From the NCBI GenBank assembly GCA_965655095.1, contig OZ296653.1, forward strand, positions 38,564,001-38,628,000: DNA of 64,000 bases, in the 5' to 3' direction. Below, piece after piece: positions 4,522-55,901 of this stretch. The notes beneath the pieces were generated by a model. It saw nothing but the letters and a program-made list of their open reading frames with translations. It was not told the DNA's origin and ran no database searches. The position numbers and the translations under genes were made by a program. The stretch's first letter is position 1. Every line of letters begins with the position of its first letter. This DNA comes from Haplodiscus bocki (Eukaryota).

Positions 4522-6128
4522 TGTTGCAACACATCTGCGTAGCCTGCTGACAAGAGCTACCCAAATAAAGGTGTTTCCTAGATGACTGAGCAAACTGAAC
4601 AACAAACAAAAATTTTTACATTTAATATACCCAAAAAAAATTTATAACTGATCCATACTATATACGGATCACCATACCAGACTGATCCAGACTAGGACGC
4701 AAACGTTACGGAACAAACGGATATTGCAGAGCTTTCCTACGCTGTCAACGGTGTTACATCTGCATTACTAAATTTATTGTGTGATACAAATCCAGCTTTT
4801 CAGATCAATTTTTTGGATTGACTGCAACAAAAGCTTTTTTAGACATTGCAGCTCAAAAACTGAGCTAAATAACAGCGTTACTTTGAACAACATAGAAGAT
4901 TCCGAGAGTGATTATTTTTTCTGTGCGTGTTCCGTCACTACTATTCTGGTGACATCACGATCTTTCCGACCACTACGCTGTGCTGTAGTAACGCACTGAA
5001 AATGGAGTGACTCTGTATTCATCCTTCACTTGAGCAAAGGCCGCCTGATTTGACCGCCGCTTCTAGTGAACACGGATAATCTCCTGAAAAAACTGTTGGC
5101 TACTCCATGAAGGAGAAGTATTCTGTAGTGTTACTAGTTTCTACTCGTCTCTGGAGACAGATGATGAAGTACTTTGAACGAAATATGAAACGTGAAATAA
5201 CTATTCCCAACATGAATGAAAGAGCAAAATAATTGTTTCTTAAGAATTTCCTTTAATTATTCAATTTTTTCATATCTTGATTTGCAATATTTAATTTCTC
5301 CAATTGGGAAAAGTCCAATAAATTGCTTGCGAGTAAAATGTTTGCGCGAGAATAAGCACTTTGATGTCCATTTCCGATGAAGTAGGTTCATCCATTTTCT
5401 GACGAAACATGGAAAAAACAGGTCGCATGTGGGAAGAAATGGTTGGAAAACTGTTTATTCCCCTCTAGAGTCGGCAGTTTCACTTTGATTCTCCTATAAT
5501 GATAGTAGTTTACCGTTTTTGTACCTTGACTTGGCTTGTCAACAGCTACTTTTCCGCCAGGAAAAGGGTATCCATACAAAAAACGAAAATAAAGGACAAA
5601 AAATTGTACGGATGATGCAAACCAGTCACGATGTTTTCTAAAAACTTGACTCTCATTTTTCTTCATTTTTATTAGAATGTAGTAACTAATTCAGTCTGCC
5701 CCACTGGTGACTACCTTTCCCTCTTCGCAACTGGCAAATCTCAGAAAAAAAGGATAATTAGCAGCCGTCAGCAAAGTTAGTTAATCATGAGGAACATCCC
5801 ACGAGCAACCAAGCGCGGGAGACCTTTTTTTCCTTCAAGTCAAGAGGATTATAATACTCAAGTTGCAGGAAACTTGAAAGTACAGTGATAAAAAAGCTGC
5901 CCCATGAGATCAGTGGGACGGAGAGCCGAATTTTGGGCGCTGTGTCTAGGCTGGATGATATCTTCGAACCCCGGAAGTCCGACTTCACTTCACGTTCCAG
6001 GGACAACCAATTCAAGTAAGGAGAACCAAGAAACAAATGAGGATCCTTCTCAGAATGATCGTCAGACTGAAAAGGGTGTCTCATTGACCCGTTCCTCAAA
6101 AAAATCCGCCTGCAGGAGATTTCTGATT
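4522..6128 (+). mobile_element. 5' LTR of Gypsy element 1
   Basis: Starts TGTTGCAACAC (cf. TGTCGCAGCAC at 49271, which follows a PPT). Collinear with 49271-50890 and with the reverse complement of 55902-57504. Followed by a degenerate PBS-like TGATAATATGAGT and gag. Confidence 0.8.
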
Positions 6129-7290
6129 TGATAATATGAGTTCAAAACGAGATTTCTTATTGCCCCAGTGGGAATTTTCATGAAAAATCACAGAAGGCGC
6201 GCTCCACAATTCAGTAACATTTTCGAAGTAACAACACCCTGCGACGGTTGAAGGAGAACAGATTTTGTTAGCGACCAACAACAGCTTTGCCAACTTCAAC
6301 ATTAACCAAAATAGAACTTCTAAACTGCCACAGTCACTCACCACGGCAATTCCCACAATTGACAGGAAATTTGAGAAGTTCGAACTGCTTAAAATCTATT
6401 CTAATCGAACCTCAAGATTCCTATTCAGGTGACAGAAGACAATAAAATGTATTGTTTTCAATCTTTAAGGAAGCGGGACGCGTTGCAGACGTTCGAAAAC
6501 ATCAGCAGCCCGACCCCGCAGAATCTGGGAGCACGTCTAGCAGTTTTCCGTAGAAAAAAGGCAAGCCTCAGTAAATGAAATTTGTCTTCAATCTGCCAAA
6601 CCAAAAGTCGGAGGACTTTCTTAACTAACTACAAAGACCTACAAATTACGCGTTCAGATTAGCTTGTCTGCCCTCACTCAACAATCCATAAATGCCAAAA
6701 GGCCACCACATCTGAAGAAATCGAAAAACCAAGCACAATTGTAAAATGACACGTATGAACAGATTGTGAAACATCTCGAAAACAAAATTTACTGGAACGG
6801 TTTTCAAAAAAACTTGGTAATATAAATTGAAAACTTCAATTGACGCAACATGCCACAAAAAGCATTCCTGAAAAGACCAAGCCGAAATATCATCACTGCA
6901 TATAGGCAAGCAACTATTGAAATCAATGACTTCAACTCAAGAGAGGGGAAAAATTGAAGGCAACAGAAAGAGTGCTGGAAAAAAGAACAGTGGTCATAAA
7001 AAATCGAACTCGAACAACAAAACTAACAACAACAGCAACAATAACATTAACAACAACAACAACGCCAATAACAAAAAAACAATGCAAACAACAGAGCTGC
7101 AAGAAAACCAGGAACCACCTTGTGAGACAAAATGCAAAGCGAACCGTTCCACAGAGAAGTGCTACTTTGGAGATGTTGCAGCAAACAGAACCCCTCCTCG
7201 AAACAGAAGAGCGGCAGGACGAGTCATGTCCAACAATTTGACACCCGAAGCAATGAATGTGAGAATTTTCAGGCTCCAGCTCAACCCGTA
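5787..7290 (+). pseudogene. gag: Degenerate gag of element 1
   Basis: Collinear with gag at 21206-22770. Decayed zinc-knuckle segments near 6880-6930 and 7120-7165 (CET...STEKCYFG) flank an Asn-rich (AAC)n linker; many stops and frameshifts. Confidence 0.75.
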
Positions 7291-7710
7291 AGCTAAAAAT
7301 GCCTCGGCTTGATTGCGGAGCTGCTATTTACAGACCGGAGACCACCTGAACAATACTTCCACCAATCTCAGAGGTTTTTTGGCAGCAACATCCAAACACT
7401 TCCGAGAAAACGTAAAAAAAGCCTAATAGTCCTAATAACAACCCAAATATTGAAACTATCCAAAATACTCAAACGACCGACCGAAAAGAAAGAAAGAAAA
7501 GACGTAGACTCACAAACATCGCTATTAAAGGGAACCCTATCGTAAACTGATCCGGAACAGTTCGTAGAAAAGTAAACCAAGAGAACGCAAGCAACGGGCC
7601 TGAACAACGCCCAGAAAAGTCCAATTAAAAATGACACGACAGCTTCTAATAATTAAAACGGCAATATTCTTCCTCTCACACTAAAAACTCAATATACTGA
7701 AAAAATCCTC

Positions 7711-10700
7711 GTGAGTGATGAAAACACGAACGAACTCTACATGCCGTTGTCCTCTACAATAGTCCAAAAAGGAAGAGAAGTAATGCTGTATATCCTTCTG
7801 GATTTACAGAATGACCTAACAATAGGTGCCCTTGTTGACTCAAGGGATTACGTCAGTGCCAGAGCGCAGACTCAAATGGGAAGAATCAGACAACAAACCC
7901 GGAATATCATCTTGAAAGTGGATGATCCTCCATTTCTCCAAATACGAGTAGCAAGTGGCGCTTAGTAACAGCCTCACCTTTGTTTTAAATTAGAGACGAC
8001 ACCTTTGCAGAACATTTTGTCGTACTGAAGAAACTGAGAATGCCAGTTACCAAAATGCACTTCATGAGACACAATAATGTAGTCCTTGACACTACACATG
8101 GCCTCATTCAATTTCATCACTTAACAATGCAGATCAGAAAACTAGAAGCCGAATGAGAGAAATACCCCAATCCGTCCTCAGCGATGATAACCTGAAAATT
8201 CCGCCGTTAACAAGAAAAACAATCAGAGCTTTTGTTGATCATATATCCCAAAGTCACACAATATATAAAGTGAAGCATCTGAAGAACTTCACTGAAACAG
8301 TCTTTCTGCTGATTTTCCACTCGATGTCATCAATAATTGACAAGAAAGCAGCAAACAGAGTAAAAAATACAGCTTTATCACCTTACACGATCAAAAAGAA
8401 CATAAACTTCGGCCTCCTTAGTGGTGAATCTGGACCAATTCAAGTTCATCAATCGAGTAGACACGGCTTTTTTAGTACGATCTAGGACGGTGTTCCAGAT
8501 CCAATTACTTACATGAATGAGCTAGTAAGAAGGAAGAAATCTGTGCAAATTCTGGTTCCTCATACCCTAATATCCTGGCAAAACTGACGATCTTACCGCC
8601 ATAGAATCACTAATCCTCAGAGAACTACACGAATTGAAACCAAAACAGAAATTGAACTTGAAGGACGACACAGAATCTCGAAAAAACTCCGTGGACTAAT
8701 TGAATGGACGGGAATACTGCCTACTGAAGTTGAGAAATAAATAGTTGAAGAAAACCTGGTTGAGTATTTTGATATCTTTAAAAAAGGAAAACGATGGACA
8801 TTGGTATGAACACCAAGTTTAGAGTGAAAATGACTCCCGAAGATGACACAACTGCTTAAAGCAAAAACATACCAACGTCGATCCACCTAAAAAAATAGTG
8901 AATCGGCTAGCCGGCTCCCTTGCACAAATATGACGTAACTACACTACTGTCATTCTCCTACTGCGCAATTCTAATTTCTGCCCAGAGGAAATCCAAGGGA
9001 ACAACCACGTCTAATTTTGGATCTCAGACAAATCAACCGTCTGATTGCGAATAACTGTACTAACAAAAATCGCCCCTTGAGCACTTCGCCAAAGTGCCTC
9101 TTCTGCAAGCTCCATCGTCACGAAGCTTACCACTGTTTTCAGATGGTGGACCAATAGTCAATGGAGACGTTTGCATTCAGTCTTGTGCGTGTGACATTTC
9201 CCACAAAAGACTTGCACAGGGCCTAAACAGATCAGTGTCTGCATTTTCAAGCTCCCTATGCGAGCACTTGCACCCAATTGTCAAGGCTAACTGATGCGCC
9301 TAATACATGGACGTTGAAACGATTGCAACGAACATTGCTACTGTTTTTACGGGGAATAACCAGGCAGTCTTCATAAGCATTCACAAAGCTGGATTGGAAA
9401 TGGCAATATAAAAAAGACACTTTGAAGTTATACAAAATGAACTCCAGGGGCAGGACCACTTTACCAGAAGGAATTTCACCGCAAGCCCACAAAATCCTAA
9501 GCGCCTCAGCAGACTCGGATTTCCCAAACCAAGAGAGGCTTTTCGGCGCTGCCTGGAATTCGTACACCTTTACAAAAAATTTTTTCACAAGATGGTTGAA
9601 ACTCTTAACGCATTCTAAGAGATGCTGAAAACCCAAACGCCGCAAAAAGCAACAACAGAACGTACCGAAACGTTTGTTTAGAAAACAAAGCACTCAAAAG
9701 ACCATGCCAACTAATGTTAGAACAGCCCCAACTACGAAAACAACTTGATGACCGACGCAAGCTTCAGAAGCGCAGGTTTTGCACTCATGATTGAATTAAA
9801 CACGGATCAGAAAATCCAATCAGAACGGAAAACGTTCACCCCTACGGGGCTTTCCAATAAAAACCTATCCCGCCCGCCCCACTGAAAATGTCAATATACT
9901 TTAACGGATTTTCGGTTACTGACATGGCATTTCGCGAATTTTCCAGAAATTCTCAGGGAAGTAACGAAACCAACAATCGTCTTGACGGATAACAAATCCG
10001 TCAAACGTTCTTTATTCAAACGAAAAACGTCCCACCATCGCAATTCCCAAGTAGCAGGCATTGCTGGTTCAGTCAACACAACAGCTGGAATTATATCCAC
10101 ACTAGTATTGAAAGTAACCGCGAACCGTCTCAAAATCCGGGAAAATACATAAACAACACTAATAAAGGTGAAAATATCTTCCTCGAACGTCGCCAACGAA
10201 GGATAGTTCTTGTTCACACCAAGGAGCAACAAAAATGAGACCGAAGAACAGTCCTTTGAAATGAAGGAGCAACCTTGGAATAAAGCAACAGATTGGGTGG
10301 CAAATGAGGAGCCATCCTCAAGGAAGCCAAGTTTCAAGGAGTTTAAAAAGATGGACAGAAACAGCACGTGATACTCCATCAATGAAATCAAGGCGAATTC
10401 GCGCTTAACAGTGGAGCAAGACGATGATCTAGTATAGAAGAACTTGAAATTCAAAATATTTGGTCAACAGCAAAATCTATTCAAGCACTGCGAAGCCAAC
10501 GAGGATGGCGAGATTCTCAAATTCTCAAAGACGGCCTAATGTTCGGGACGTAAAAAGGAAAAACTAAGAGCTTCAAAGTTTACGAAAGTTTAAAACCGAA
10601 CCATCTTCTGAATGAAGCACTCCGGAATCACCATTACACTAATTGCCTACGGACAAATATTTCACTACACGAACAGGGCGCAGTTGATCAGAAAGAGGCT

Positions 10701-11700
10701 CATTTCATGTATGCAAGGTATCAGGAGTTGAGGAAGGGACAAAAAAAATCATTCATTCACAACTTCGAAACCCAATTGAAAACGTCACAGGATGAGAAAG
10801 TGCCTTGTGGATTAATCTAGTTCCAGAACTACCTGAGTCACGAAAATATCTTTAAAGCTCTGGCTGTGTTCTCTAGCTAACTGTTTGTCTAACCGACACG
10901 ACGCCAAGAGGTCACAAATGATCACATGAGGTAAACATATCATGAGTGAGCAGACTTATTCACCGAAAACGAGCATTTCAGACAAAAGATTAGCGTTTGC
11001 GGCGGAAACAATCACAGAAATGGCAGATTTTGTATGATTTATCCTAAAAATTGCCACAAGTAAGCGTACCCATATGGTAGGAATGTTCGGAAGAACGCAT
11101 GCCTCACTCGAAAAGCACCAAGCACTAAAGAATGAAACAATTAAACGAAGATCAATATGCTACAAGTATGTCAACGTTGCCCTCCCCAATTACATCACAA
11201 CAAATCACACAAACATTGGGTTCCAACATAGTAGAGTGTTCAGCGGAGGCATTCCGTACAATGTCCTAAATCTGAGGATGGGAATTTAGACATCACCGAT
11301 GCCAATTTTACAAGTTGCCCAAGATGTCCTTGAGCACACAGAAAATATCTTTCAAGGTGTTCGCCAATTATTCCATGCAAGCCATCAAGTTCAACGCGTA
11401 CTATGACAAAATAACAAAAGCCTCAAAATTGAGATAACAAAACTGTATGACTGCCTTACAACCGAAAGCAGCTCACACAGGAAGTAAAAATGCCTCTAAA
11501 AGGTTTTGTTGGATTGTTCCTTATATCGTTGGAAAGTCCAAACAACATTTACTTGGTGCGAAAAGTGGAAATGGACAGAACACAAGACCTGCACCGTATG
11601 AGACAACAACCGCTCACGCCAGGAAAACTTATACTTGATGTAAAACCCACGTCACAATAATTGAAACCCGACCATGTGTTGATCAATACCTATGATGCAT
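7711..11700 (+). pseudogene. pol: Degenerate pol of element 1 (protease-RT-RNase H-integrase)
   Basis: Protease GALVDSRDY (ORF 7711-7965); RT with KRLAQGLNRSVSAFSS and decayed YxDD (TAC ATG GAC GTT near 9304); RNase H MTDAS (~9748) and LTDNK (~9982); integrase with WIVPYIV GPY/F-like motif (~11510). Confidence 0.85.
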
Positions 11701-12257
11701 TGAACAACATGGAAAACTGCTGAATACGAAAGCCCATTTTTGACAACAATCAAGAGGAAGCTGACCTGCACAGTTCACCTGGAAAAGCTCCGCGATCTCA
11801 TCCAACGTATGACGAGTCGTGTACTATTCCAGGCATCGTACCGAAAACTTGCCCAAACATTCCTCAGCAAATGGACAGGATACGTAACAGACAGATTTGG
11901 ATCAAGACAATTGTAATACACCTGACACGAATTCGGAGCAGCATAATCGTAATTACAAAAACTACCGCTGTGCAAAATACGACCCGCGTCATAACCCAAA
12001 ATCGAGTTGCATTTTTAATTGAACAGCATCGATTACAGGTTCTGATATTTTTTTTCCAATTTAACTTTCTGAGTAAACCCTAGTTTGCTCTAAGGAATAC
12101 GCAGCATCTGCGGAGACGACTTCGAGATTTTCCCCATTTGATATCGAAAATGATATAAACGTCTACTACATTTGCTTAAAATTTAAGGAGCCTCTCCGGC
12201 ACGAAAAAAAAATGACTCAATTTTTCCAGCTGCACCACAACTCCAACTAATTGCTCA

Positions 12258-12457
12258 NNNNNNNNNNNNNNNNNNNNNNNNNNNNNNNNNNNNNNNNNNN
12301 NNNNNNNNNNNNNNNNNNNNNNNNNNNNNNNNNNNNNNNNNNNNNNNNNNNNNNNNNNNNNNNNNNNNNNNNNNNNNNNNNNNNNNNNNNNNNNNNNNNN
12401 NNNNNNNNNNNNNNNNNNNNNNNNNNNNNNNNNNNNNNNNNNNNNNNNNNNNNNNNN
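12258..12457. other. Assembly gap (200 N)
   Basis: Run of exactly 200 N; true size unknown. Confidence 0.99.
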
Positions 12458-15400
12458 AGGATCTCCGCTCATTTCAGGATGAGTCTGTCATCCGTGGTGC
12501 TGAAGCTGGCGAGCTAAAGGTTTTCCCCTCTGTTCACTTGACGTCCCCGTTGAGAACCTGTCGAGAAATGAGGAAGAGGCGGGAGTGGCGAGTCCGGAGC
12601 GGGTCCGAAAGGAATCTGCTCGCGCTTCAATTATTATATTGGTGCGGTCTTCTTTTGCCATGTGGAGTTGTACGAATTGACGGGGATGATCTTCCGATGC
12701 CTGAAACAATTGCTTCTGTTGATTTTCTTCGTTGCGGTACCCCAGCCCATTGCGATGTGGTGTCTCGCGTCCACCTTCCAAGAGCCTGTGAGCCATGCTT
12801 TTGTGCGAGACTCAGGCTGGGTTGTTGAAACTTCTGGTTTTCTCTCGTGTTAGTAGTTTTGTTTTCTTCTATAATGACTCTACTTTAGCTTTTCTCCCGT
12901 AGATTCCCCTTTGGCATCATTGTATTTTTCATGAGCTAGTTCTAACCGCTCCACATGTTTCTTGAAACTGGCAACATGGGGTTATTCTTTTTCAGTTTTT
13001 CAGTTGATAATTCATCTGGATAGCCTGCTGGTTGTCCGCGATGTGTTCACTGAGCCTTCTGTGTCAGAGTTTGGAGTTGGTGGAACGACCTCTAAAGATG
13101 AGGTGGTATGGCGAGCGACCTCATGTTCATTTTTGATACTTGGTTTTCATCACTTATAAACTAGTTGCTCCGTTGACTTCCAGTCAAGTTTTTGCAACGT
13201 CTTTGCGTATGGATACTGATGAAGGCACGCCGATGAGATCAGGGCGTGAAAATTTTTTGACCGGTGTTGCAAAAGAGAGTCAGGTTCGGAGGAAAAAGTC
13301 GGTTGTAAGAAGACGCTTGGTTCCACCCTCCAAAGGCCTTAACCAGAGAGATCCCCCTGTTCCAGTGCTGATCGAAAGTGAACCCTGCCTGAACAGGCTT
13401 TTCATGAGGGTAAGGCTTCTGTGTATTTGTGGATTTTTTCAGTATTTTCCTTCATTTGAACGTCAATACCTTCTACTTTCTTTTAATAGACCAGTATACT
13501 GCAGATCCTGCCTCTACAATTATCAATGACACCGATCAGCTGCTCGAGTCTTTTTGCTGTTTTTTTATGGAGAGAAGAGTTTGCAGTTACTGGACCCTAT
13601 GATGAGCTCTTAGTATCTTTCCGTATCCACGGAACATCCTGGTTTGAAGTGAAAAATGTTGTTATTTTGTTTTCAGAGTTGAACAAAATTCCAACAGGCG
13701 GGCTGGCTAAGGAGTCAACAGCACTGTCAGGCGTGTCGACAAAATAACAGACACTTTGTCAGATGAGTCAGTCGGGAGCCCCAGGCATCGGGAAGTTTTG
13801 AACAAAAAACAGACAAAAATGACTTATGCCGCTGATGAGCTGGGACGCTTCCTCGTGACTGGTTTAACTGACGCTGCTGGGAAGCCAAATTACTATTACA
13901 GTCTTTTCCACACGGAGGTGTCTGTGCTGACGAGAGGCCAAACGAGATTTCTCAGCATTTTCTGGGCGCTCGTCATTTCTCGGGGGATTATCGCTTGCTG
14001 TTAGAAACTCCTGACTGGTTTTTCCTTCACTTGGACCGGAACTCTCCTTCTGATGAAGAGTTAGGATGAGAGCGGCAGAAGATTTTGCTGGCTCTTTTCG
14101 CCACGTGTGCTTGTGAAAGTGTGTTCAAGGTGACTTTGCTTGTTGACGAGAGTGATGCAACCTATCCAAACCTGACAGTGCTCGCGATGGTGTCTTCCAT
14201 CATGGAAGTCCCTGGCTTGGTGGTCGTTACGAGCTTGTAATGAAGCTCTGGATCCAGTTCATGCTAACTGCCAGCCGAATTGACATTGAGTCGCGAGATG
14301 AAATGCAGGTACTTTCCAGAAATATACGTAGTTTTTTTCAATTTACCCTTGTCTTCATTTGTTCGTGCTTTGGTCAATTATCTTGAATGGGATGTTTGGC
14401 GTTACCCTGCGTCTGGCTATAGGCTGGGTGAATACCAATCAGTACTAGATTAGGGAAATTGAAAAGCAAGATACTCACTCGTGGGTGTTTCTGCGTACGG
14501 GGACCACAACTTTTTGTCCACGTGTGCATGTGTGGCAGATATGGTGAGATTCGTCAGTGATGCAACCGGTGAACTTGGCATCGTTGGTTAGCTTCTTCGT
14601 GCTGTCGATGCAAAAAATCCAGCTGTGTCAGTTCCCTTGTTTCCAGTCTGCTAGAAGAGGTTCATGCGGCTTACATTAGCATTGAACATCTGCAGAAACT
14701 GAGACTTATCCCTGCTCAGTCTTCGTTTTTCTAAAGCACTGCATTTGGAGTTCTTCATCGTCTGTGTTGGGGTTCTTGGATGTTTTCGCCATAACTAATT
14801 TCTTGGTGTCTTTTCTGCCGGGGGCCGAGAGCGGGAATTGGATGATGTCCAGGACTGCCTTGAGACGAGCTGTCATCATCGGAGGGCTGTCAATGACAAC
14901 GCTGCTCGAGGTGGTGGCCTACATCATAGGAGTATGGGCGCTGATCACAACCTACTTGGGAATGATTGGCAAAAGAGGGATGGACACAATCTCATGGTGT
15001 AACATAGAACTTTGTTTTGATTCATTTACGACTGTGGTGTAATTTTCTAGTTTCTCTTTGTTTAGAAGAATGGCGTTGACGGCTACCTTCATATTGATGA
15101 AATGGCTCGCAGGTAACTTCAATGCTTTCATTTGATCTGGGAGATAGGAAATTTGACTTCGGATTTGGTTCATCAGTTTATGTGTAAAACTTGTCTGCTC
15201 TCGGAAATAAGGAAATTTACTTGCATGCTTCTGGTGTCCATACTAGTTTTGTTCGTCCTTTGGGTATTGGTCAAAATATCGGGTTTTTCGTCAATACTCG
15301 GTATTTGCTTTGTACTATCTACCAAGGGATGATGGAAACTAGGAGACTTCATGCAGCCTTCGAAGTCTCGTTCTCATTTTCTCTGCATGAGCCCCACGTG
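12458..15400 (+). pseudogene. Copy of the intron-containing zinc-finger/hAT-like accessory gene (fragment of a - strand element)
   Basis: MTYAADELGRFLVTG...EVSVLTRG (13756-14004); intron 14309-14373 followed by SIILNGM; NWMMSRTALRRAVII...IIGVWALITTYL (14764-15042); homologous to the copies at 28041-32300, 45000-48330 and 58449-61950. Confidence 0.75.
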
Positions 15401-16117
15401 AACTACGAAGTTTCTGTTGCTTTTTCTAGTTTACTCCCAATAAGGTCCGGCGTTATCAGGCACAACTAAGAAAAACTCCGTATCTTTCCGAGTTTCCTCT
15501 TGGTTCTGGCTGGTAGTTCTGGGTCAAAGCAGGAAATTTTCCGTCTCACTCCGAGTTTCTTCATCGTTCAGTTTAGAAGTTTTGTGGAAAAGTGAGATGT
15601 GTTCCTTCCTGAATTGTTCCTCATTTGGTTCTTCGTGATTCAGTCTGCAACAACTTTGTGGAGCTCGTTACAGTGGAACCTGAAAACAACTATCATGAGT
15701 TTGAAGAGCAGTCTCGTTACAAAACCAAAACGATCCTCACGCTGCCCGTGATTGAAAAAACGTAATCCTATATGTTACCCAATCAATCGCCGTTCCCCTC
15801 TCCCAAATGAAAAGCACTTTTTACTTAGAACGCACCTTCTGACAGACTATGAAAAGGTATCCAGCTATTACTAGAAGTCAGAGTTCAAGATTGATTGCCG
15901 TCAGTTCGTCGAAAACTTTGTCCGCAATGTGCTTTCTTCCGTTGCCGCAGGATCCCTCATTGATCAGGGCCTGAATTTTTTCTGCCCTGAGATCATTGCT
16001 GGCGTATATGGGTACTCCACGTACTGCCTGTTTGAACAGCTGCGTAACTGGATTCTTGAGAGGGGCTAGATCCTGCGGTACATCCAACGAAAGCGGCAGT
16101 CCACGGCTCGCACTCAC

Positions 16118-19894: not shown

Positions 19895-21580
19895 TGTCAC
19901 AGCATGACTGCGAAGGCTGCGACGAATGTTCCCAACTGAAGATGACAATCCTGGCCCATCAAAAAAATGACTGGAAACTGTAAAGCAATCAAAATACCTA
20001 TATTTTCCAAACTTTCATGATTTTATGAAAAACAATACGTAATATTTATGTATTACTCCATATACTTAACGACATGTAAAAGTCACGTGTCCTATACGAG
20101 CATTTCTGGTGTATTCATACAGATTGGGACGGAATAACCACGAAACGGATGGATTTTCCTTCATTTTCCCTACTCTACGCCCATATCAGTAAAAGGTGCT
20201 GCTTTTATAAATGATTTATTTATTATATGAATGCACGTTTCTGATAACTAGTGCAGTAACTTAAATTACAATTGACTGTGTCAATACGTTTGCTGTAATT
20301 TTCATGATTGTAACCTTAACCTGGAAGTGACTTTAGAAGTCAAGGGTTGCTCCGTAAGTGTTCTGTCGCAACCAATCTGATGACGTCACTAGAAGTTAAT
20401 CTAATCTGCTGTGCTAATATGCTGTGTCTTTTTGGACGAACATGAATTGGTTTTGAAGCCATCGCCTTCATTCTTCGCGGTAACGCTGCGACGAGCGACT
20501 ATCTGGCCGCTCCAGAACTCTCAGTCGAAAACCGGGAACCAGCTGGCAGCAAAAGAGGACGGAGTAGGAAGAAGCATATCCGTGCTCCAAAAGCGATTTT
20601 AATGGGTGCAATGACAGTTTCGGAGCATATTTTTATGCTTTATGATTTTTTAGTGTAGTTGAATTCTTTTTGAAGCATTTTTAGTTATTTTTTTCTCATG
20701 GAAAACCCATTTGATTTTCGTTCAAGTCACTATTCAATGTCCTGACGCAGGAATATGCACTTTTATGTGCATCCATAACGGAAAAGACCCCTACATTTTC
20801 TGTCGAAAGATGGAAAAAACGTGGTTTATGAGAGATGAAACGGACGGTGAGGTTTTTTAGGCAGAGTTGGCATCTCCGTTTGTGAAAGTTTTAATTAAAG
20901 GAATCCTTCTCTATTTTAATTTGAATTGGCGTGTAAACAATCTTGTTTGCCGCCAAGGAAAAGGTAGAAATAGGAGAAAACATAGTACTATTATTATTAT
21001 TATAACAAATTGCAGCCTTCAGTTTTCTGTGCTCTTACCTTTTAAATGTCTGTACGAGTTGAAAACTTTTTCTTCTGTGACAGGAGAAGACATTTTGTTA
21101 AAAAAATCAATCTTTTTTTGAAGATAAAAAATTTTAGTCCAGTCGTCAAAATTTATGAGATTTCCTCCGTTCCGAATTCTAGCAACACTACGGACTCAAC
21201 GAAAATTAACCACGGTCTCGAGAGACACACAAAAGAAGCTCGGAACGGCCGCTCAAAGAACACATTCGTTCCGGAGTTGACTGAAGAGTACATCACCCAA
21301 GTATCGGAGGAAATGGAAGAGAGGATCACTAAAAATGTCCCTGGAATTTAATTGGAAATAGTCACGTATAATGGGTGCTTTGCTGAAGATAGACGATATT
21401 CTTCTGAGCCCGCAAGTACAGACTTGCTCCGGAACCGCTCAGTCAACATCCCGAAGCATCAGCTCAGAAACCGGGAACCGACTAGGGATCGTTCTCCGAT
21501 TGAATCCTATTCTAATGTAGAATTCTGTTTTCGTCCGGTCAGCACTTCAGTTGACTCGAACCGGAAGAAGGCCTCTCACA
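19895..21580 (+). repeat. 5' LTR of element 2
   Basis: TGTCACAGCA...CTCTCACA termini; collinear with 33174-34781. Confidence 0.85.
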
Positions 21581-22770
21581 TAGTGACTAGAATACAAGAA
21601 CAGATTCACTATCGCTCCCCTGGGACTTCATCAGGAAAACAACTGAAGGCGCGTTCCGAAAGTCAGCCACAAATCCGCAGTGGAAGCAAACCTAGGACAA
21701 TTGAAGTAGACCAAATTTGGTTAGCCCTACTGCAACTGGCAACCAACAGCATTTCTGCCAAATTCAATAACAATATCAGAAGTTTCTCGAAACTGGCCAA
21801 ATACCGCACGACGACAAAGCCCAAATTTGACGGAAAATCAGAAAACTTTGAACTATTTGGAGATCTATTCCTAACAAGTCTCAAAATCTACAACCAATTC
21901 ACGGAGAAAAGCAAGATCAACTACTTCCCTTCTCTCATGCACAGTGATGCTCTCCAATTTTTCGAAAACATCATCAGCCTTAACAGAGAGGATTTAGAAA
22001 TAAGGCTGTCTGTGTTTCCTAGGAATTACGTGAAACCGCCAGTCAATGGCGACGGCTAAACAGAAATTCCAAGGACTGGTGTTCAACCTAGCAAAGGAGA
22101 AGGTATTTGATTTTCTGGATGAACTCCAGAAACTAGCAAAGGATGCATTCGGAGTTGCCGCTCAGGCTATCGCCGAGCAATTTGTATATGACCAAATGCT
22201 TCGCAAACTGAAGAAATCTATTAATCAGGCGCATTTGGAAAATGGCACATGTGACCAAATTGTGTCACATCTAGTAAAAAAATTACAACTGGATGGTTCG
22301 GAAGCTACAGATGATCTGCAGAAAATAACTGTGAAGCAGCAAGTCACACAGCAGAATCCAGATAGACGCAAACCAAAATGTCACAATTGGAAAAACCCAA
22401 GTCACCACCGAAACCAGTGTCGTCAAAATAAGCGAGAAAGAAACCATGCCCAAAACGAGAAAAAACAGTGTTGGAAGCACCAATAGAAAAACAGTGGTCA
22501 GAACAAACTCTTACTCCAATAAAAGGCATCCAACAGAACCTTTACAAACAATTCAAATAACTGAAAAGACAGAAAACACCTAACTGTCTACCCACCCTTG
22601 TGGAACCTGTGGTAAAACCAACCATCCCACAGAGAAATGTTACTTTGGAGCAAACGCAGCTAACAGATCACCTCCTCGGTACAAACGACTGGAAGGACAG
22701 CATCGGCCACAACGAAGAGACAACCAGTTGGTCCAAATGACAGTAACCAAGCTGCAGCTTACAAATTAAA
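21206..22770 (+). pseudogene. gag: gag of element 2 (starts inside the LTR)
   Basis: ORFs 21352-22059 (PKFDGKSENFELFGDLF...KINYF) and 22046-22486 (FLDELQKLAKDAFG...EQFV). Decayed knuckle KCHNWKNPSHHRNQC and a second knuckle GTCGKTNHPTEKC near 22602-22640. Confidence 0.85.
21581..21593 (+). promoter_or_regulatory. Degenerate primer-binding site
   Basis: TAGTGACTAGAAT immediately after the LTR-terminal CA; resembles a TGGTG(A/T)CAG(G/A)AGT tRNA-Leu-type PBS (inference). Confidence 0.45.
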
Positions 22771-23172
22771 CTAGCAACGCCACGTCTTTAGTCCGGAGCT
22801 GCATCTGTTAGAACAGCAAAACTTCCATCAATTCTTGAAAATTTCTGGCAGCAAATCTCGGAAACATTTATAAACCGACACAGTTTCAAAAAAAATAATA
22901 CTGATTCGACGGTAAAATAACCTGAAGGATGTTAAATGACGAATGTAGCAAGTCAGACGTCACCATCTAAGTGAATTGAACCACATAACCACGTAGGTGC
23001 CACCGAACAACTTCGTGAAAACTATTGAGAGAACATACCAGTACAGTTGCTCAGCTGCTCCAACACTTGACCTACCGATATCCAGGAATCAAAAAACGAC
23101 AAGCTGACTGCCCTGAATGGAGATACCAGCATTCCCCTTCTCATGATAACAACCCCACTAATTGAGGAATAG

Positions 23173-23620
23173 TTGGTGAGAAATGGACAGACCAATGATC
23201 TGTACCTTCCGCTAACCTCTACGGCGGTCTTGAAACAAAAGCAAGCAACGCTCTACGTGCTTCCTGATGTGGAAAAATATCTAACAATAGACGCCCTGGT
23301 ACACTCAGGAGGCTATTTCGGTGCCTTTCCTCAGGATGAGTTGGGCACCATAAAAAAGAAAGCGCCTTGTATTAATTTCAAAGTCGAAGATCCTCTCACT
23401 TTCCAAAGACAAGTAGCGAATGGCCAGTTAGAAAAACCATTAACAACAGCCACACTTAATTGCGAGATTGGAGACAACACATTTGCTGGCTGAACATTTT
23501 GTTGTAACGGCGAAAATAACAAAGCTAATCATAGGCTTGCACTTTATGAGCAATAATAAAGTGGTCATGGACACAATTTACAGCCTTAACATTTCCCACA
23601 CTTGACGCTGCAATTTAAAA
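23173..23620 (+). pseudogene. Retropepsin (aspartic protease) domain of element 2
   Basis: IDALVHSGGY (decayed D-S-G), QVANGQ flap motif, and IIGLHFM near 23528. Confidence 0.8.
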
Positions 23621-24199
23621 CTGCCTCAGGTGAAGCAACTGCCAAACCCCAACCTTTCCGCAATGACGATGCCCTGACGATACCACCAAGGACAACAAAA
23701 AAATTACAGCCTAGGTCGATCACCCTTCAGAATGGAACAACACAACATGTACTATGACACCATTGGAGAAATTCACGGATATGGCATGTCTGCTGATTTC
23801 ACCTTCAGTGTCAACAATAATTGACGAGCGAGTATCAGTAAACAAAACAACGGAATCACCATACTAATCAAGAAGATTTCACAGTTTGCGGAGTTCTCCG
23901 TAGTCATTCCGGAGCAATCCATGTACCTTAAACCAGCAGACATGGCAATCCTCAGTATGAATCCCCAAGGTGATCCTGATCTGACTGCCTACCTAAACTA
24001 ACTTCTCAGAATCAATAAACCTTAGCAGCAAACAAAACTTTCTAGTTCCCGGCACCTGAAAATCCTGGGAAAATCGAGGACCACACCCGAACATATACAC
24101 GAATCCTCAAAAATTTAACGGAACTGAAAGAGAAACGGAAACTCAACCCACAAAAAAGGGCACAGAGTCTCGGACGAAGTTCTTAGAACGATTTGAGTG

Positions 24200-25100
24200 G
24201 ACTGACAGAGCTCTAACAGAAACAGACAAACAAGCAATTGAAGACATCCTGGTCGACTACCATAACATTTTAGCTGGACAGAAAAGATATTGGGCTGAAC
24301 ACAGAATTCAATATGAAATTAACGCCGACACACGATGAAGCTATATACAGCCAACGCTGGCCAATGCCAATCCACTTGAAACAAGACCTATGTGTTGAAT
24401 TAGCACCGATGCACAAACTCGGAATCATCACGGTACTTCTTTTTTCTAAGTATGCAAGTTTATGATTGCACAGTGGAAACCCAACGGAAAACTACGTCTT
24501 TTTGTGGATCACAGGAAAATCAAGAGTCTCATTACGAAAGACTACACTAACGGCAATCACCCAGTTAGCGTCTCGTCGGACGCAGCACAACACCTTGCAG
24601 GAAAGTCTCTATTCTGCAGGCTAGACTGCTCTCAGGCTTATCACTGTTTGCAGATGGCTGACTAACGTTCAAAGGAAATGCTTGCTATCAATTTTGCTAG
24701 AGGAACTTTTGCCTACAAAAGACTTGCACCAGGTTCAAGCAGATCTGTGTCTGCCTTTTTAAGTTTCAGGCGTGAGTACTGGGATCCACTTGACAAAACT
24801 GACCAAATTGCTCAGTACGTGGACGACATCGGAACTGCAGCTAACAATGCTGCGGACATTACACGGAACATCCAAGCAGTCTTCAAGTGCAATCGCCAAG
24901 CCGGATTGAAACCCACAATAGAGAAGTCCGATTGTGGAGTCAGCCAAGTTGAACCGCTAGGAGAAACAATTTCACCGGAAGCAATCTCACCGCAAGACCT
25001 GAAAATCCACAACTTTCTAGACAAACTAAGTTTCCCCATATCGAAAGAAGCATTACAGTGCTACCTTGCCTTGGATTGGATTTGCGATTTACTACAAAAC
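24200..25100 (+). pseudogene. Reverse transcriptase domain of element 2
   Basis: KPNGKLRLFVDHRKI, FCRLDCSQAYH, FAYKRLAPG and QYVDDIG; premature stops present. Confidence 0.92.
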
Positions 25101-25700
25101 TTATATCCCTAGGATGTCTGAAAAGCTCAACCCAACCTACAAATTACCCACAACTGAGGTGCCAATCAACATCAAGGCAGAGTCGGAAAAAATTTTTCAA
25201 TCAAATAATAAAGCGCTCAGTGATGCTTGCCAACGAGAACTGAAACAACTCAATCCATGGAAGCTACTTATCCCAATGGCGGATGCAATCTTCAGAAGCG
25301 CCAGCTAGGCCCTCATGATAGAAGGTACTCCAGACCAGGAAAAACAGTCAAAACGCTAAACATTTGCCCCCGTGGCGTTCGCATCAAAAATATTCTCACT
25401 TGAGGAACTCAAGATGTCCATCTGGTCAAAAAAACTTTGGCTATTCACATGGCATTTCTTGAGTTTGCACACAAGTTGTGGGACGCAGCGAACCCAATAA
25501 TCGTTCTGACAGATAACAAATCATCCACGCGATTTTTCCAAACGAAAGCAATTCCACCAGCACTATGGAATGCATGTGCTTTTGAGCTGCAAGTCAACTT
25601 CAATATAGCATACATCGCCGATTCAATCATTACTGCAGCTGAATTTCTCTCCAGACTGCAACCCAAAGTTACGAGGAAGATACGTCACAAAGTCCAAAAA
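25100..25700 (+). pseudogene. RNase H domain of element 2
   Basis: MADAIFRSAS (TDAS-like), PVAFASK, IIVLTDNKS and AEFLSR. Confidence 0.85.
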
Positions 25701-26199
25701 GACATTAAGACAACACTTATTGAGTTGACAACAACTCCCTTGGACGTCACAGACCAAGAACAGTTCTTCTTCAATCGAGCAAACAATAAGAATGAGTCAG
25801 AGGAACAAACCCTTGAAAGAAAAGAACAATCTCGACAACATGCGAAGCAATGGGTAGCGAACCAAGAACCATCGTTGTTGAAAACTGGTGTGAAAGAATT
25901 CACTCAAATCGACGGGAACACTACGTCGTTTAACATGAATGGAACCATGGCAAATGTGCAAATACTAAAAGAGCATGGTATTGACCTTTTGTCCAAAAAC
26001 CTGATACTAAAAGTTCTAGGCCAAGCAAATGAGGAAGTGTTAATAACAACCAACCCACGATACAAGCAATACAAAGCAAATGAAGACCGCAAAAATCTTG
26101 AAGTAAACCAAATGTTCAGACAATTTTATGGAAAAACTGGTAGCGTCAAATACTACCAACTTCTCGATTTCCTCAAAAAATTTCAAATTATCAAGCAAT

Positions 26200-27300
26200 T
26201 ATTCAATAAAGTACTGCGGATTTCGCACGGAGAAGTCATGAAGCACCCCGGAAGAACCAAAACAAAATTTATATAGAGGCAACAAAACTTGTACCCAAAT
26301 ATGGCCCATATGATCAAAAATTGGGTCATGTCAGGTGAGCAATGCATCAGAGAATCATGGTTTGATCGCAACACCACTCGCCTTTCCCTGCAAAATAATA
26401 ACGAACACATCACTGAACCAGAAGGCGCCATGCAGGTTGATTTGGTACCGGGAATACCTCCATCTGGTGGAAATGAAAACATAGTGACAGCCATGGGTAT
26501 AATTTTCCACTACTAACTTGATTATCCGATATCCAACCAAGACGCCAAAACACTTGCTAAAATTATCCTTAAGATTATGCCTAAGCATGCCTACCAACCT
26601 ACGACATTCATTTAGAGCAAAGTATCGGCCTTTGTGTCCCAAGTAATAAATAAAGTGGTTGGTTCTCTTCCCATTACTCTAAAGCACGTCACAAAGAAAC
26701 ATGCTCAATCGATTGGTGTGCTTGAACGATCCCACGCGTCAATCAAACAACCTTTGAAGAATAAAACAGATGAACGCAGATAACTGTGGCATTTCTACAA
26801 CAGCAATGCGGTTCAAAAAAGTACTCCTTATCACGCAAGTATTGGCTGTGAGCCAAGCATGGTGTTCCATGGATGCCTTCCTTATTTTGCCTTAGATTCG
26901 TCCACAGCAAGCAACCAATCTTTTATCGCAAACTGCCCAAGATGTTCTTGATCAAACAGAGATGATATGCCAAAATTGTTTGCAAAAAAAATTATGCAGG
27001 CCCACATCGAACATAAAGCTTATAACGACCAAAAGGCCAACACCTCAAAACTCAAACAAACAGATTATGTTAAAAACTCACAGATCATCAAAAGAGTAAA
27101 TTTCCATTTACGGATTTCCGGTTGATTGGGCCGTGCATTATTGAAAAACCGTTAACGAACAACAAATATTTGATACGCAAAATTGTCACAAACAAGACGC
27201 AAGTACTTCATCGTTTGCAGTTGCGTCAGTTCATACCGACAACGTCTACCTGGTGTGCAAATCACGCCACAAGAAGAATAACCTGATCCATAAGTCCGCA
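26200..27300 (+). pseudogene. Integrase domain of element 2
   Basis: HGEVMKHPG...EQC (decayed HHCC), AMQVDLVP, IGVLERSHASIKQ (~26715), and a GPY/F-like IGPCIIEK (~27125). No chromodomain seen. Confidence 0.85.
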
Positions 27301-28040
27301 TTGAACTTGGCAATTTGTAGGTCAGGGCATTGGGATGTGAATGTGAAGAGCCAATTTTCGACTCAGCGTACGATAATGCGGCGCCCCCAGTTCACCCGAA
27401 TTTGCTGTTTGATCTGATCTGTCAATCCAGGAAACAAGGAACACACCAGGAACCTCACGAGGACGCTCCCTAGAGTTGCGGAAACGAGCATGGAACAACC
27501 CAACTATAATCTGACCAACCCCCACTGTTCGAAACACAATTTGTATCATAACCCGAAGCCGAATTGCAATGGCAATTACCGATTTTTATTCATGAACTAA
27601 ACCAGTGTTTTCCCCGGAACGCATACGTAGATGTTTGAAAAATTCCAGGAAAGCGTTACGGAACCAATTTGTAGCAAATCAAAAACTTGTTCTATTTTTT
27701 GTGACTATTCCGTGGCGACTAACTCACTTACTACTCAGTCCTACCAACTTCAAAACAAGGCCTTTGACAACCGATTCAGTTATTCTAGATACGGGCCGAC
27801 TTCAGGTTATTTTATCTTTTCTTATTCTGACTATTCAACTAGAATGGTAAATACAAGAATATCAATGAAGCAAACAGTTTCTCACTGCAGATGACGGAAG
27901 AGCAACGCGAAAATGTGTATATGCAGTAGTTTACTGAAGCGCAAAAAACACTTTCAATTACGGCAACCTCCCATGGAAGACAAACGCGGCTCCTCAGCCT
28001 CGCCCATTTCTACAAAAATTTCCACGGGTAGGCTGGGATG

Positions 28041-31000
28041 CTAAGGCGAAGTCGGATCTTTGACTATGACGCGTTTTCGAGGCGTGACGGAAAGACTGGC
28101 AACCTCAAATTGACGCAGCAGCTTCACAGGTCTGTTGAACAGTTGCTTTTTCCCCTTTCTAGGAGGATAATGTTGTCGGCTTGGACCAGCAACCTTACGG
28201 GAAGGAGCAGCAACGGGCACATAATGAACCTGCCCATCTTCCACGACAGTTGATATGCGGACACCGTGTTTTGAGGAAGATTCATCGGATGAGGGCCTCA
28301 CAGCACCCAGAGCAAACCATTGCTCACTCGTATCTTTGACGATACGACGCCGACCAAGTGCCGTTTCAAAGCACGTCTTCAAATCTGTAATAATCTGGCC
28401 TGACGACTCGCTCTCCACCTTTGACCACGGGGCATACACAGAGCTGCTAATGATGCTATCAGAATAGGCAGCAGCTTCAGACAGCATCGTACCACCCGTT
28501 CCTGACAAGAAATTTAGCAGGGTAAAAAGTGGATCTCTCACAAAAAACTGAATACAGAGCAGGACTCTACGCACTACTTCCTCTCTGATAAGAAACAGCA
28601 GCAGGTTTATTGTGAAACTCTCCCCAAACGTCACTGGCCCACCAAAAGCGATTCCTGTTATATGGAACACCTCAAACAATAAATGAATGAGCCAACAATA
28701 ACAGTGAGACTACATTGTACATGCTTGGAGACAATATGTACTTCATACAGATGGCACTGTACAGAAAACCAGCCTGCGGAGACCAAAAAGTCAGGACTTT
28801 CCCTAGGTCAGGGCAGCTCATTGTTGAATTCCGCTCGAGCTGCCTCTGGTTTTGCGCAAACGACTGGCATTCTGATCAGCGGGCCTCCATCTCAGCGCCC
28901 CTCACCAACCTTTCTCAAGTTGTCTATCAAGTAACAACTTGAACAGCTGCATAGTGGCATGATCTTCACCACTCAAACTCGGAGTGCAGAAACAACTGAA
29001 CCCTTGGCCTATTGGAGACTTGGTGGCAACGGTCGACAAATTGCAGCTCATGAAGTCTTCGAGAAAATTCATGCAGTCCCCCTTGAACTCCTTCTTCAAG
29101 GGGAAGCTCCTGACTTTCTCAAGGGCTACCAGCAAAAGAAACGCTTTTCGTCAATAGCAGCAAACTTCGATTGATTGGGAGCTATGGGCACCTCCCACAG
29201 CTCCACTAACGGCAATACGTTGCTTTTCATAATCTCCTGCAGAAAACAGTAAACAAAATGGGTGACCTCAACAAAAGCGTAGTCCTGATAATCAGCATTA
29301 GATTGAGGATGGACAAAATTGTTGGCAGCTGAAGCAGAACGTTTGTCACAGATATGGAGATCACGTCAATCTCATCGAACGTTTAACACGATGCGTGAAA
29401 CTTACCCGAAAGAAATTGTGCAACCATATTAGTGCGTTACTAGAAATATTTGGAGAAAGCTCCAGAACGCACACGTAACAAAAAACAAAACACCAAATTA
29501 TCTTCATGTACTTACATATTTCAAGTATGTGGGAAAGACGGACCTTCAGGCGAGCGAGTTGATCCTGATAGAAGTATCCATCCATCCATCTTTTTCTTCT
29601 ATTCATCACATATACATTATGCATGGGTACGAGATTGTAGTAATAATCTCAAAAGAATAAAACATTACTACAAGACTATCGCCATCATCTATTCCTCATG
29701 TTTTTTTTCAGGTACAAAAATATCAACGGCCATATTGCCAGATTATTGATCTCGATTTCCAAGAGTACCTTCATGACAAGGCTGCTGGTTACAATGGCTT
29801 TTTTCGGTCCTGGTCGGGAAGCCGTCCAATCGCCACCGTCTGCCCCTTTAGGCCTATTCACAAGAAACTCTTCCATGGAGTGGGGGTCCAGAGATCCAAA
29901 CACACTTGATGCAATCCGTTTTAGGCAGCCCTCAAACCAGCACAATTTAAAGAATCATTTTTCAATTAGCTTCTCTTGATACCCACTGTCTAGATAGCTA
30001 ACAAACGCTTCCACGGGCGCATGTGGACCGCCGTGCATCAAAACCACGCGAACATTGGGACCAAGTGCAGCAATAGCCCGCCCAAATTGCTGCTGAAACA
30101 ACTCAAAATGGTCACACGGACCAGACGAAACTGGCTGTTGTCCCAGCACCGAAGACCCAGATGTGCTCGCCCCGCTCTTCAAACTCAACGCAACAGTAGC
30201 CACGATTCGCAACTCAAGTGAAGACCTCGCTCAAGATAGGGGTACATGCTGTTTAGACTGAATGAGTAAAAAGGAACCAACAGTGGGCAACCGGAATGAT
30301 AACGTGAAACATGGAACAAGTAAAGCACTAGCCAACACTTCATTAAGGGAGCATATCACGTCCACATTGACTCGCCCCACAACTAGAGTGAAATGGGACC
30401 AGAGCTGGTGGACAAGTTCGTAGCTCCCGCTCAAACGTAGTGCCTCGATCAAAACTGAAACCTTTGCGAGTACAGGAAGACTGACGTCAACTGCAACCGA
30501 AATGTCCACCATGAAGTCATCTGAAAAAAGAAAACTTTCTGTCTCTCACCACTTGTGGAGACCTCAAGATCCACTGCCGCTCATTTTCTTTCCCTCTCAT
30601 TGAATTGTTTTCTTAATCAAGCACCCGCCTACCTGGAGTTTCCATACGAAGGCGTTGATATCTCGGAAAGTGCTTGGTGCCCTCATGTAGCGAAACGCAC
30701 ACTTGCTTCATACAGATCAAGCAGTAAAAATTCAGCGGATTCTCTGGATGCGTCTGTTGCCTCAGTCAAGAAGAAGTGGCCCATCTTGTCTACCGCTCAG
30801 CAGTTTTTCATGTTTTAGCTCCGCTTGGAAAGGACTCTTCTCAGCGGATAACTCGTGTACGTCTCGTTGCCGCCAAAAGTCGGTGGTCTCAAATTCGAGC
30901 ATGTGATGATTCCTGCTGCATGCGTTGAACACGACCCAAAAAAACATCTAATCTTTTAGACATTCAAGCATACGATGAACACACGCCAAGGACTATACCT

Positions 31001-32300: not shown

Positions 32301-32699
32301 GGAAACACTGAGGAGCGGTACTCAAGTGCTCCTCAATTTCAATTCGCTATCTTGGGACATGTTTACATCCCGCCAACTTCAGCTTTACGTCCTACCGCCT
32401 AACTTTATCAACTCTTACCAGCAACGCAAGAACATCAAACAAAATCCCGCCTGATGAAACTGAACTATCATTACCCGCAATACTCAAACACTTTTAAAGT
32501 CAATTCCCCATCATCATCATCAGTTGCTATGCTAAACAGACTATTTCTTCAAAGTTTACTAATCAGTTGAAATTCCTCAACATTTAGAGAATGTATCGAC
32601 CAATTTCTCCTGAATCCAACGTTCCGGATTTGTTTTATATGGAGCAATCGTCGGATGAACAAAAAATCAGTTAACAATACCCGGGAGATGATAACATTA

Positions 32700-55801: not shown

Positions 55802-55901
55802 CACGTCAGTTGTCAGAATGATATTGACCTCACCAGATAGGTAGCGACGGAAGAAATTAATGAAACTTGGCGACCAGCAACAGGAATACATATGAAGAAA
55901 T

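What the first reader, a model, noticed from the sequence alone, without database searches (positions are those of the whole stretch)
14309..14373. Conserved spliceosomal-type introns inside a retrotransposon, protected by antisense orientation
Seen: all five copies of the accessory gene have a 64-75 nt interruption at the same codon boundary (R(D/E)E(V/I)L^SIILNG-like): 14309-14373, 30258-30332(-), 46775-46838(-), 60212-60275 and 61181-61246. Their consensus is GTTAGT...pyrimidine tract...YAG, and each copy retains a canonical GT or AG. Further acceptor-like sites recur at 13676 (TTGTTTCAG) and at 15065/61922 (CTCTTTGTTTAG). Established: sense-strand introns tend to be lost when a spliced RNA is reverse transcribed, whereas introns on the opposite strand are invisible in the genomic RNA. 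Inference: the gene was captured at DNA or unspliced level and is expressed from its own spliced antisense transcript.
Basis: partly seen in the sequence, partly recalled or inferred. Interest (0 to 1): 0.8.

Follow-up and report, generated by a model that had tools for sequence, protein, structure and literature searches.

The report
Retrotransposon carries spliced antisense transposase relic
A jumping gene that copies itself through RNA carries, on its opposite strand, an eight-intron gene whose protein is predicted to be a disabled cut-and-paste transposase that likely still binds DNA; the introns likely survive copying because they read backwards in the element's own RNA.

Summary
The window holds old, broken copies of a 15.6-kb Ty3/gypsy family whose young copies lie elsewhere in the genome. 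Between pol and the 3' LTR these carry, antisense, a 9-exon, 8-intron gene. In 25 aligned copies, 179 of 200 intron ends are GT/GC-AG (background 1%). Six copies are fully open for about 1,180 aa, with dN/dS 0.08-0.15. The flagged segment is intron 5: 1,154 genomic matches have exon end plus GT, and none has the joined form. Uninterrupted natural relatives run straight through this junction. One of them folds like Hermes hAT transposase (Foldseek E 3e-5; Z 13.7). The zinc-finger ligands are conserved and no acidic catalytic column is. The cassette occurs as three deeply diverged types on near-identical pol genes, implying module swapping. Corrections: no window copy keeps both GT and AG; the 30258 end is 8 nt off; the 14309 copy lies on the same strand as the nearest pol, across an assembly gap. 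Splicing and function were not shown, because no RNA run was listed. Antisense extra genes are known; a hAT-derived one with eight introns was not found in ten literature searches.

The parts
14309..14373 (+). Intron 5 of the accessory gene, degraded copy 1 (GT..GG); the flagged feature
   Evidence: family counts
12458..16072 (+). Copy 1 of the accessory cassette, exons 1-8, broken; starts at the assembly gap; own pol not adjacent in the expected orientation
12849..12995 (+). Intron 1, copy 1 (GT..AG)
13139..13212 (+). Intron 2, copy 1 (ends decayed)
13410..13489 (+). Intron 3, copy 1 (GT..AG; alignment was one base off)
13609..13676 (+).
14997..15065 (+).
15148..15643 (+). Intron 7, copy 1 (donor decayed and approximate, AG kept)
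4522..12011 (+). Old element A: 5' LTR, gag and pol, broken; ends shortly before the N gap
12258..12457 (.). 200-N assembly gap
20014..34779 (+). Element B: full-length but degraded Ty3/gypsy copy; LTRs 20014-21578 and 33286-34779 (72.7% identical); gag and pol about 21600-27585
28050..32104 (-). Antisense accessory gene of element B, all 8 introns placed: 31763-31630, 31477-31408, 31215-31145, 31024-30954, 30332-30266, 29668-29595, 29515-29329, 28741-28671
30266..30332 (-). Intron 5, copy 2 (GC..AC), corrected end
32501..33220 (+). Remnant of the sense Ser/Pro-rich ORF ('s3') that runs into the 3' LTR, divergent from the antisense gene
44925..48275 (-). Copy 3 of the accessory gene (approximate ends), with intron 5 at 46838-46775 (CT..AG); s3 and an LTR follow on the + strand (48737-50918)
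58600..60838 (+). Copy 4 (approximate start), with intron 5 at 60212-60275 (AT..AG); its LTR and s3 lie on the - strand at 55874-58098
60839..62130 (+). Copy 5, a fragment abutting copy 4, with intron 5 at 61181-61246 (GT..AA) and intron 6 at 61852-61922 (GT..AG)

Best explanation
The flagged segment is intron 5 of a nine-exon gene that a Ty3/gypsy retrotransposon family carries antisense between pol and its 3' LTR, and whose protein is predicted to be a catalytically dead hAT transposase that likely acts as a DNA-binding helper of the element. Shown: eight GT-AG introns, one frame of about 1,180 codons under purifying selection, opposite strand to gag-pol, introns kept in freshly inserted copies. 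Established principle: the full-length element RNA is the reverse-transcription template and presents these introns as CT..AC, so the spliceosome cannot remove them and every new copy inherits them. Inferred: a hAT DNA transposon inserted head-to-head into the 3' region of an ancestral element, lost its ends and active site, and kept its zinc finger and fold. Inferred: the gene is transcribed from an internal two-way promoter in the conserved AT-rich stretch between its start and the sense ORF s3, spliced by the host and translated. Most likely job (about even odds): it binds the element's own DNA and promotes its transcription or shields it from silencing. Template switching between co-packaged RNAs would swap three ancient cassette types onto near-identical pol genes.
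For: Element type: PR-RT-RH-IN order, gag, no env hit; TG..CA LTRs, TGG primer site, purine tract, 5-bp duplications in 6 of 7. Introns: (179 of 200 ends canonical; 48 of 48 in the six open copies; exon length differences are multiples of 3 in 168 of 168 pairwise comparisons, intron differences in 65 of 224). Selection: dN/dS 0.08-0.15 in six within-type pairs, the lowest of six frames. Retention: 1,154 exon-plus-donor matches against 0 joined; gag and pol are uninterrupted ORFs. Junction check: 27 relatives, 19 of them 734-890 aa, are collinear with no insertion across introns 5 and 8, and the search of this genome with one of them breaks at residue 250/251, the intron 5 position. Fold: model of relative P0352, pLDDT 78; top 10 Foldseek rows are Hermes, best E 3.1e-5; Z 13.7, rmsd 5.0, 387 residues aligned, next other protein Z 6.3. 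The poor model of this genome's own protein also ranks Hermes first, E 3e-3. Zinc ligands conserved in 26, 25, 24 and 26 of 26 relatives and 5 of 5 own exons; no shared acidic column in the core strands. Swapping: RT-RH 91-95% identical while cassette types are 51-67% identical.
Against: No transcript evidence. The confident fold is of a relative at 21-32% identity, not of this genome's spliced product; the own model has pLDDT 47 and its wide search shows only a generic RNase H-like fold, best Z 7.7. No sequence-level link to hATs: Pfam none, PDB none significant, own-genome hAT ORFs none. The active-site positions were mapped by eye from secondary structure, not from a printed structural alignment. 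Exon 1 shows dN/dS 1.4 and intron 1 is unusually conserved inside, so the 5' end of the model is less sure. LTR and s3 do not co-segregate with cassette type, which gives no support for a type-specific target in the LTR. The flagged copy is not antisense to the nearest pol as assembled.
Confidence: 0.65

Rival explanations
1. Same gene structure and origin, but the protein works at integration: it binds chromatin or DNA motifs and tethers the integrase complex or imports it into the nucleus, instead of regulating transcription.
For: Zinc finger and hAT fold kept; basic Lys/Arg-rich stretches in exons 5 and 9; nuclear import is among the roles discussed for plant antisense ORFs (PMC7264820).
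Against: Integrase is 92-95% identical across the young copies of different cassette types that are 51-67% identical, so a tight partner contact would have to tolerate very different cassettes. Insertion preference was not measured.
Confidence: 0.17
2. The cassette is a selfish passenger (for example a drive or toxin-antidote module with the divergent sense ORF s3) that raises transmission of carriers without serving retrotransposition.
For: Two divergent ORFs around one conserved stretch; both far more diverged than pol yet under purifying selection.
Against: s3 variants do not track cassette types (same-type pairs 64-75% identical in s3); no toxin-like domain in Pfam.
Confidence: 0.07
3. The protein is still an active nuclease or transposase with a rearranged active site, for example mobilising or processing element DNA.
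For: The full catalytic-plus-insertion architecture is kept over about 500 residues; own-genome exons have Glu on the first core strand in 5 of 5.
Against: Those Glu are not conserved in the 26 relatives; the fourth strand lacks a conserved Asp; no CxxH. Copies have LTRs and 5-bp duplications typical of integrase.
Confidence: 0.06
4. The segments are not spliced: they are indel-prone spacers between several short ORFs, or sense-strand RNA elements.
For: No RNA evidence was obtained; intron 1 is conserved inside (p-distance 0.04), as a cis-element would be.
Against: Canonical ends, phase continuity over eight junctions and uninterrupted relatives; no stable fold for intron 1 on either strand (z 0.07 to -0.59); no Rfam match.
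Confidence: 0.03

Closest known systems
[quoted passage not shown]
   Same: Same position and orientation, present in most copies, own promoter, proposed nuclear or DNA-binding role (PMC7264820, parts 1-2 of 3 read; PMC11963269 and PMC4408406, passages).
   Different: Those encode TRP28 or PMD domains; the passages seen describe no introns ('intron' 0 times in PMC11963269), and the review calls their origin unknown and finds no support for a nested-transposon origin. Here: eight introns and a hAT fold.
Boty/brtn of Botrytis cinerea
   Same: Non-plant Ty3/gypsy with an antisense gene between pol and 3' LTR (PMC7264820; PMC8365987 passages).
   Different: The original paper (PubMed 21802103) was not held. 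I recall brtn being multi-exon but could not verify it; if so, introns in an antisense extra gene have a precedent. No hAT origin is stated in what I read.
hAT transposases (Hermes) and domesticated hAT/BED-finger proteins such as ZBED and FAM200
   Same: Zinc finger, RNase H-like core split by a large helical insertion; model 208-698 aligns to Hermes 143-609; Atlas leads at 0.81-0.83 are hAT-derived families (lead only).
   Different: No conserved DDE or CxxH, 9-11% identity, lies inside a retrotransposon. Known domestications are by hosts (recalled).
HTLV-1 HBZ
   Same: Antisense regulatory gene of an LTR element, nuclear protein (PMC7264820, PMC11963269 passages); spliced (recalled).
   Different: Retrovirus, promoter in the 3' LTR, bZIP protein, one intron (recalled).
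Bdelloid Vesta/Juno ORF3 (DEDDy exonuclease, GDSL esterase)
   Same: Animal LTR elements with captured extra genes exchanged as modules (PMC5408684, passages).
   Different: Expressed from spliced sense messages; intragenomic evolution reported as near neutral; not transposase-derived.
VANC anti-silencing proteins of Arabidopsis VANDAL transposons (recalled, no call)
   Same: Element-encoded sequence-specific DNA binder that diverges quickly; the functional analogy favoured here.
   Different: DNA transposon host, unrelated fold; analogy untested.

Membership tests
Ty3/gypsy LTR retrotransposon | gag, then pol in the order PR-RT-RH-IN | tested here: met
   on a young copy; for the window
Ty3/gypsy LTR retrotransposon | TG..CA LTRs, primer-binding site, polypurine tract, short target duplication | tested here: met
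   5-bp duplication in 6 of 7; tRNA partner of the primer site not identified
Ty3/gypsy LTR retrotransposon | RT placement in a named clade | not tested
   the tree held only unnamed relatives
U2-type spliceosomal intron | GT donor, pyrimidine tract and YAG acceptor conserved while the interior drifts | tested here: met
U2-type spliceosomal intron | Removal leaves one frame matching uninterrupted homologs | tested here: met
   phase-carried stop counts; collinearity at introns 5 and 8, 6 and 7 by eye; introns 1-4 have no uninterrupted homolog
U2-type spliceosomal intron | Spliced out of RNA | not testable with these tools
   no RNA run was available to lay
hAT transposase | RNase H-like core with large helical insertion domain | tested here: met
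   (relative P0352); weaker for the own protein
hAT transposase | N-terminal BED-type zinc finger | tested here: inconclusive
   CxxC..H..H conserved but no zf-BED Pfam hit
hAT transposase | Conserved DDE triad and CxxH motif | tested here: not met
   positions mapped by eye against the hAT ORFs
hAT transposon | Terminal inverted repeats and 8-bp duplication around the gene | tested here: inconclusive
   self-comparison listed only repeats over 100 bp; short inverted repeats were not searched
Retand/Tat antisense ORF | TRP28 (PF04195) or plant mobile domain | tested here: not met
   no such Pfam hit at E up to 1

The most novel reading that the evidence does not exclude
A retrotransposon has domesticated a DNA transposon: a hAT transposase became a spliced, sequence-specific anti-silencing or targeting factor of the LTR element, and ancient cassette alleles are kept by balancing selection and swapped between elements. 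The antisense position is a refuge where introns accumulate inside a retroelement.
Probability: 0.35. Interest if true: 0.85.

Novelty: new variant of a known kind. Interest (0 to 1): 0.72.

Why it matters
The origin of antisense extra genes in LTR retrotransposons is described as unknown, and the nested-transposon route as unsupported (PMC7264820). This family gives a concrete case for that route, with a fold that suggests a testable activity. It is also a natural form of the orientation rule behind retrotransposition reporter introns (recalled): eight introns on one strand, none in about 6.7 kb of gag and pol on the other, across more than a thousand copies. Intron-rich and intron-poor lineages of the same gene allow intron gain or loss to be studied inside a retroelement. 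For annotation, ORF-based tools would call this 4-kb region non-coding.

Tried and rejected
RNA: no RNA holder listed. Four runs of unknown kind were laid; listed contigs run through introns and none of the 15 joints shown (118 not shown) matches an intron, so they gave no information on splicing. Sequence searches for the protein's family failed: Pfam, PDB profiles, HMM and profile-profile comparison with 18 own-genome hAT-region ORFs. First Atlas query gave terminase-like leads under 0.9. A metagenome scan for loci of the intron-poor relatives found none, so their DNA context was not seen. Alignment A3 was misaligned and dropped. The RT tree is distorted by degraded copies and cannot root intron gain against loss. 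Intron 1 and the promoter stretch show no notable RNA fold or Rfam match. The idea that the element beside the flagged copy has a sense cassette was considered: all 8 of 10 close relatives that show pol are antisense. Host identity: my guess of an acoel came from memory, and the search listing did not test it. Literature: ten searches found no report of a hAT-derived or multi-intron antisense gene in an LTR element; the library lacks most subscription journals, including the brtn paper, and no supplements were read. Earlier scan findings: none.

Full report
Setting. The window is G000:C6:38564001-38628000 of a 1.5-Gb eukaryotic assembly; I did not identify the host. It contains degraded pieces of one LTR retrotransposon family: element A (4522-12011, +), a 200-N gap (12258-12457), a cassette fragment (12458-16072), full-length element B (20014-34779, LTRs 72.7% identical) and three further 3' fragments. 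Because all window copies are broken, I tested the finding on natural young copies from the same genome.

Observation. The five interruptions are present and homologous. Their ends are GT..GG, GC..AC, CT..AG, AT..AG and GT..AA. The sites at 13676, 15065 and 61922 are acceptors of two other introns. The flagged copy lies on the same strand as the nearest gag-pol, across the gap. It is either an inverted part of element A, a separate fragment, or a scaffolding effect; I could not decide which.

The element. Eight copies picked from the pol hits are 15.5-15.8 kb, with LTR pairs 99.4-99.9% identical in seven and 95.7% in one. Six of seven examined have 5-bp target duplications, with TG..CA ends, a TGG primer site and a purine tract. 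Pfam gives gag and PR-RT-RH-IN: Ty3/gypsy, no env hit. All eight carry the accessory gene. In 38 loci examined (8 young, 20 from the accessory-protein search, 10 relatives of the flagged copy) pol was in view in 35, and in all 35 it is on the opposite strand.

Gene structure. I aligned 25 copies: six of the eight young ones (two near-duplicates dropped) and 19 of the 20 (one mostly deleted dropped). Eight introns emerge, GT-AG in 20, 22, 18, 24, 23, 21, 25 and 23 of 25. With GC-AG the total is 179 of 200, against 0.97% background. Intron lengths fall in all three classes modulo 3, while exon length differences among eight well-preserved copies are multiples of 3 in 168 of 168 comparisons. With phase carried across exons, 6 of 25 copies have no stop for 1,173-1,191 codons; the other 19 carry stops or frameshifts. 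dN/dS over exons 4-9 is 0.08-0.15 in six within-type pairs, lower than in any other frame; exon 1 gives 1.4, so the start is uncertain. A genome-wide motif for the exon 5 end plus donor matches 1,154 times, and the joined form 0 times (exact degenerate motifs, so diverged copies are missed by both). A rough look at host myosin genes shows the same signal style, GTTAGT in 2 of 17 candidate introns.

Independent check of the junctions. A profile search returned an 890-aa uninterrupted relative, and a second search a multi-copy family of 27 such proteins from other assemblies, with no close copy in this genome. They align to this genome's exons with no insertion at introns 5 and 8 and, by eye, are collinear at 6 and 7. 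Eleven of 27 begin with dissimilar hydrophobic leaders that end where intron 4 ends, suggesting that intron 4 is shared (inference from protein only). So introns 5-8 were gained in this lineage or lost in that one. Loss confined to the 3' side would fit recombination with cDNA of the spliced message (recalled pattern); the direction is open.

The protein. No Pfam or PDB sequence match was found. A low-confidence model of this genome's protein, read through its introns, shows an RNase H-like core and ranks Hermes first. The model of the relative P0352 (pLDDT 78, pTM 0.68) matches Hermes in the top ten Foldseek rows (best E 3.1e-5) and at Z 13.7, rmsd 5.0 over 387 residues, with the next other protein at 6.3. 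The four zinc ligands are nearly invariant across both lineages; no acidic residue is shared at the strands or helix where hATs carry D, D and E, and CxxH is absent (mapped by eye). I therefore file it as hAT-derived, not as a hAT transposase.

Modularity. Among seven young copies RT-RH is 90-99% identical, with synonymous distance 0.18-0.31 in the five measured. The cassette falls into three types at 51-67% identity with saturated synonymous sites, and all three share the eight intron positions. The sense ORF s3 varies independently, at 64-75% outside one near-identical pair. The cassette types are thus much older than the pol genes that carry them, which implies recombination. The stretch between the two divergent ORFs is 80-93% conserved across types, a candidate two-way promoter (inference).

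How it works. Shown: structure, orientation, selection, retention. Established: the sense RNA is the template, and antisense introns read CT..AC in it. Inferred: capture by insertion of a hAT element; expression from a spliced antisense message; a DNA-binding role. I put self-regulation or anti-silencing first because a dead transposase keeps mainly DNA binding and multimerisation, and because deep, maintained allelic types suggest conflict with the host. No binding target was identified, and the LTR does not track cassette type. Rivals are integration targeting, a selfish passenger, residual nuclease activity and no splicing.

Known versus new. Antisense extra genes at this position are known in plants and Botrytis, and antisense regulators in HTLV (PMC7264820, parts 1-2 of 3 read; PMC11963269, PMC4408406, PMC8365987, PMC5408684, passages; PMC4227169, PMC5987419, PMC5718144 and PMC12477816, passages that added nothing). 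The review states that their origin is unknown and asks for searches for antisense spliced transcripts. Ten searches found no hAT-derived or eight-intron case, but the brtn paper was not held and I recall it may be multi-exon. Verdict: new variant of a known kind, interest 0.72. The main gap is RNA evidence; the spliced product of this genome's gene was not itself folded.

Noticed in passing
window 32501-33220 (+); L018:4428-5141 (+): Conserved sense ORF of about 240 aa, Ser/Pro-rich, ending inside the 3' LTR with a CxxC motif; pN 0.14-0.25 at saturated pS; varies independently of the antisense cassette type.
   Followed up: partly
L018:3469-3601; window 12849-12995 and 31630-31763: The interior of intron 1 is far more conserved than that of the other introns (p-distance 0.04 against 0.12-0.24), with no notable fold or Rfam match; possible cis-element.
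   Followed up: partly
L017:9233-9400 (+): Short tandem repeats of about 38 bp with CACGTG-type palindromes directly after the pol stop, one to three copies by type; candidate binding sites.
   Followed up: no
L018:4010-4330: AT-rich stretch conserved at 80-93% across types between the antisense start and s3; candidate two-way promoter.
   Followed up: partly
window 60838/60839: Two different cassette copies abut directly: exon 6 of one runs into mid exon 5 of another.
   Followed up: no
window 12258-12457: Assembly gap between a pol end and an oppositely oriented cassette of the same old subfamily; inversion or mis-scaffolding possible.
   Followed up: partly
L083:1504-3375, L084:1851-3761: The genome has young multi-copy hAT families with single 624- and 637-aa ORFs; none resembles the accessory protein in sequence.
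   Followed up: partly
proteins P0123 and P0156: Some related pol proteins from other assemblies carry a PF00692 (dUTPase, name recalled) domain absent from the pol scanned here.
   Followed up: no
window 52260-55804: A 1.6-kb tandem duplication (80% identical) with short internal repeats, unrelated to the hits used here.
   Followed up: no
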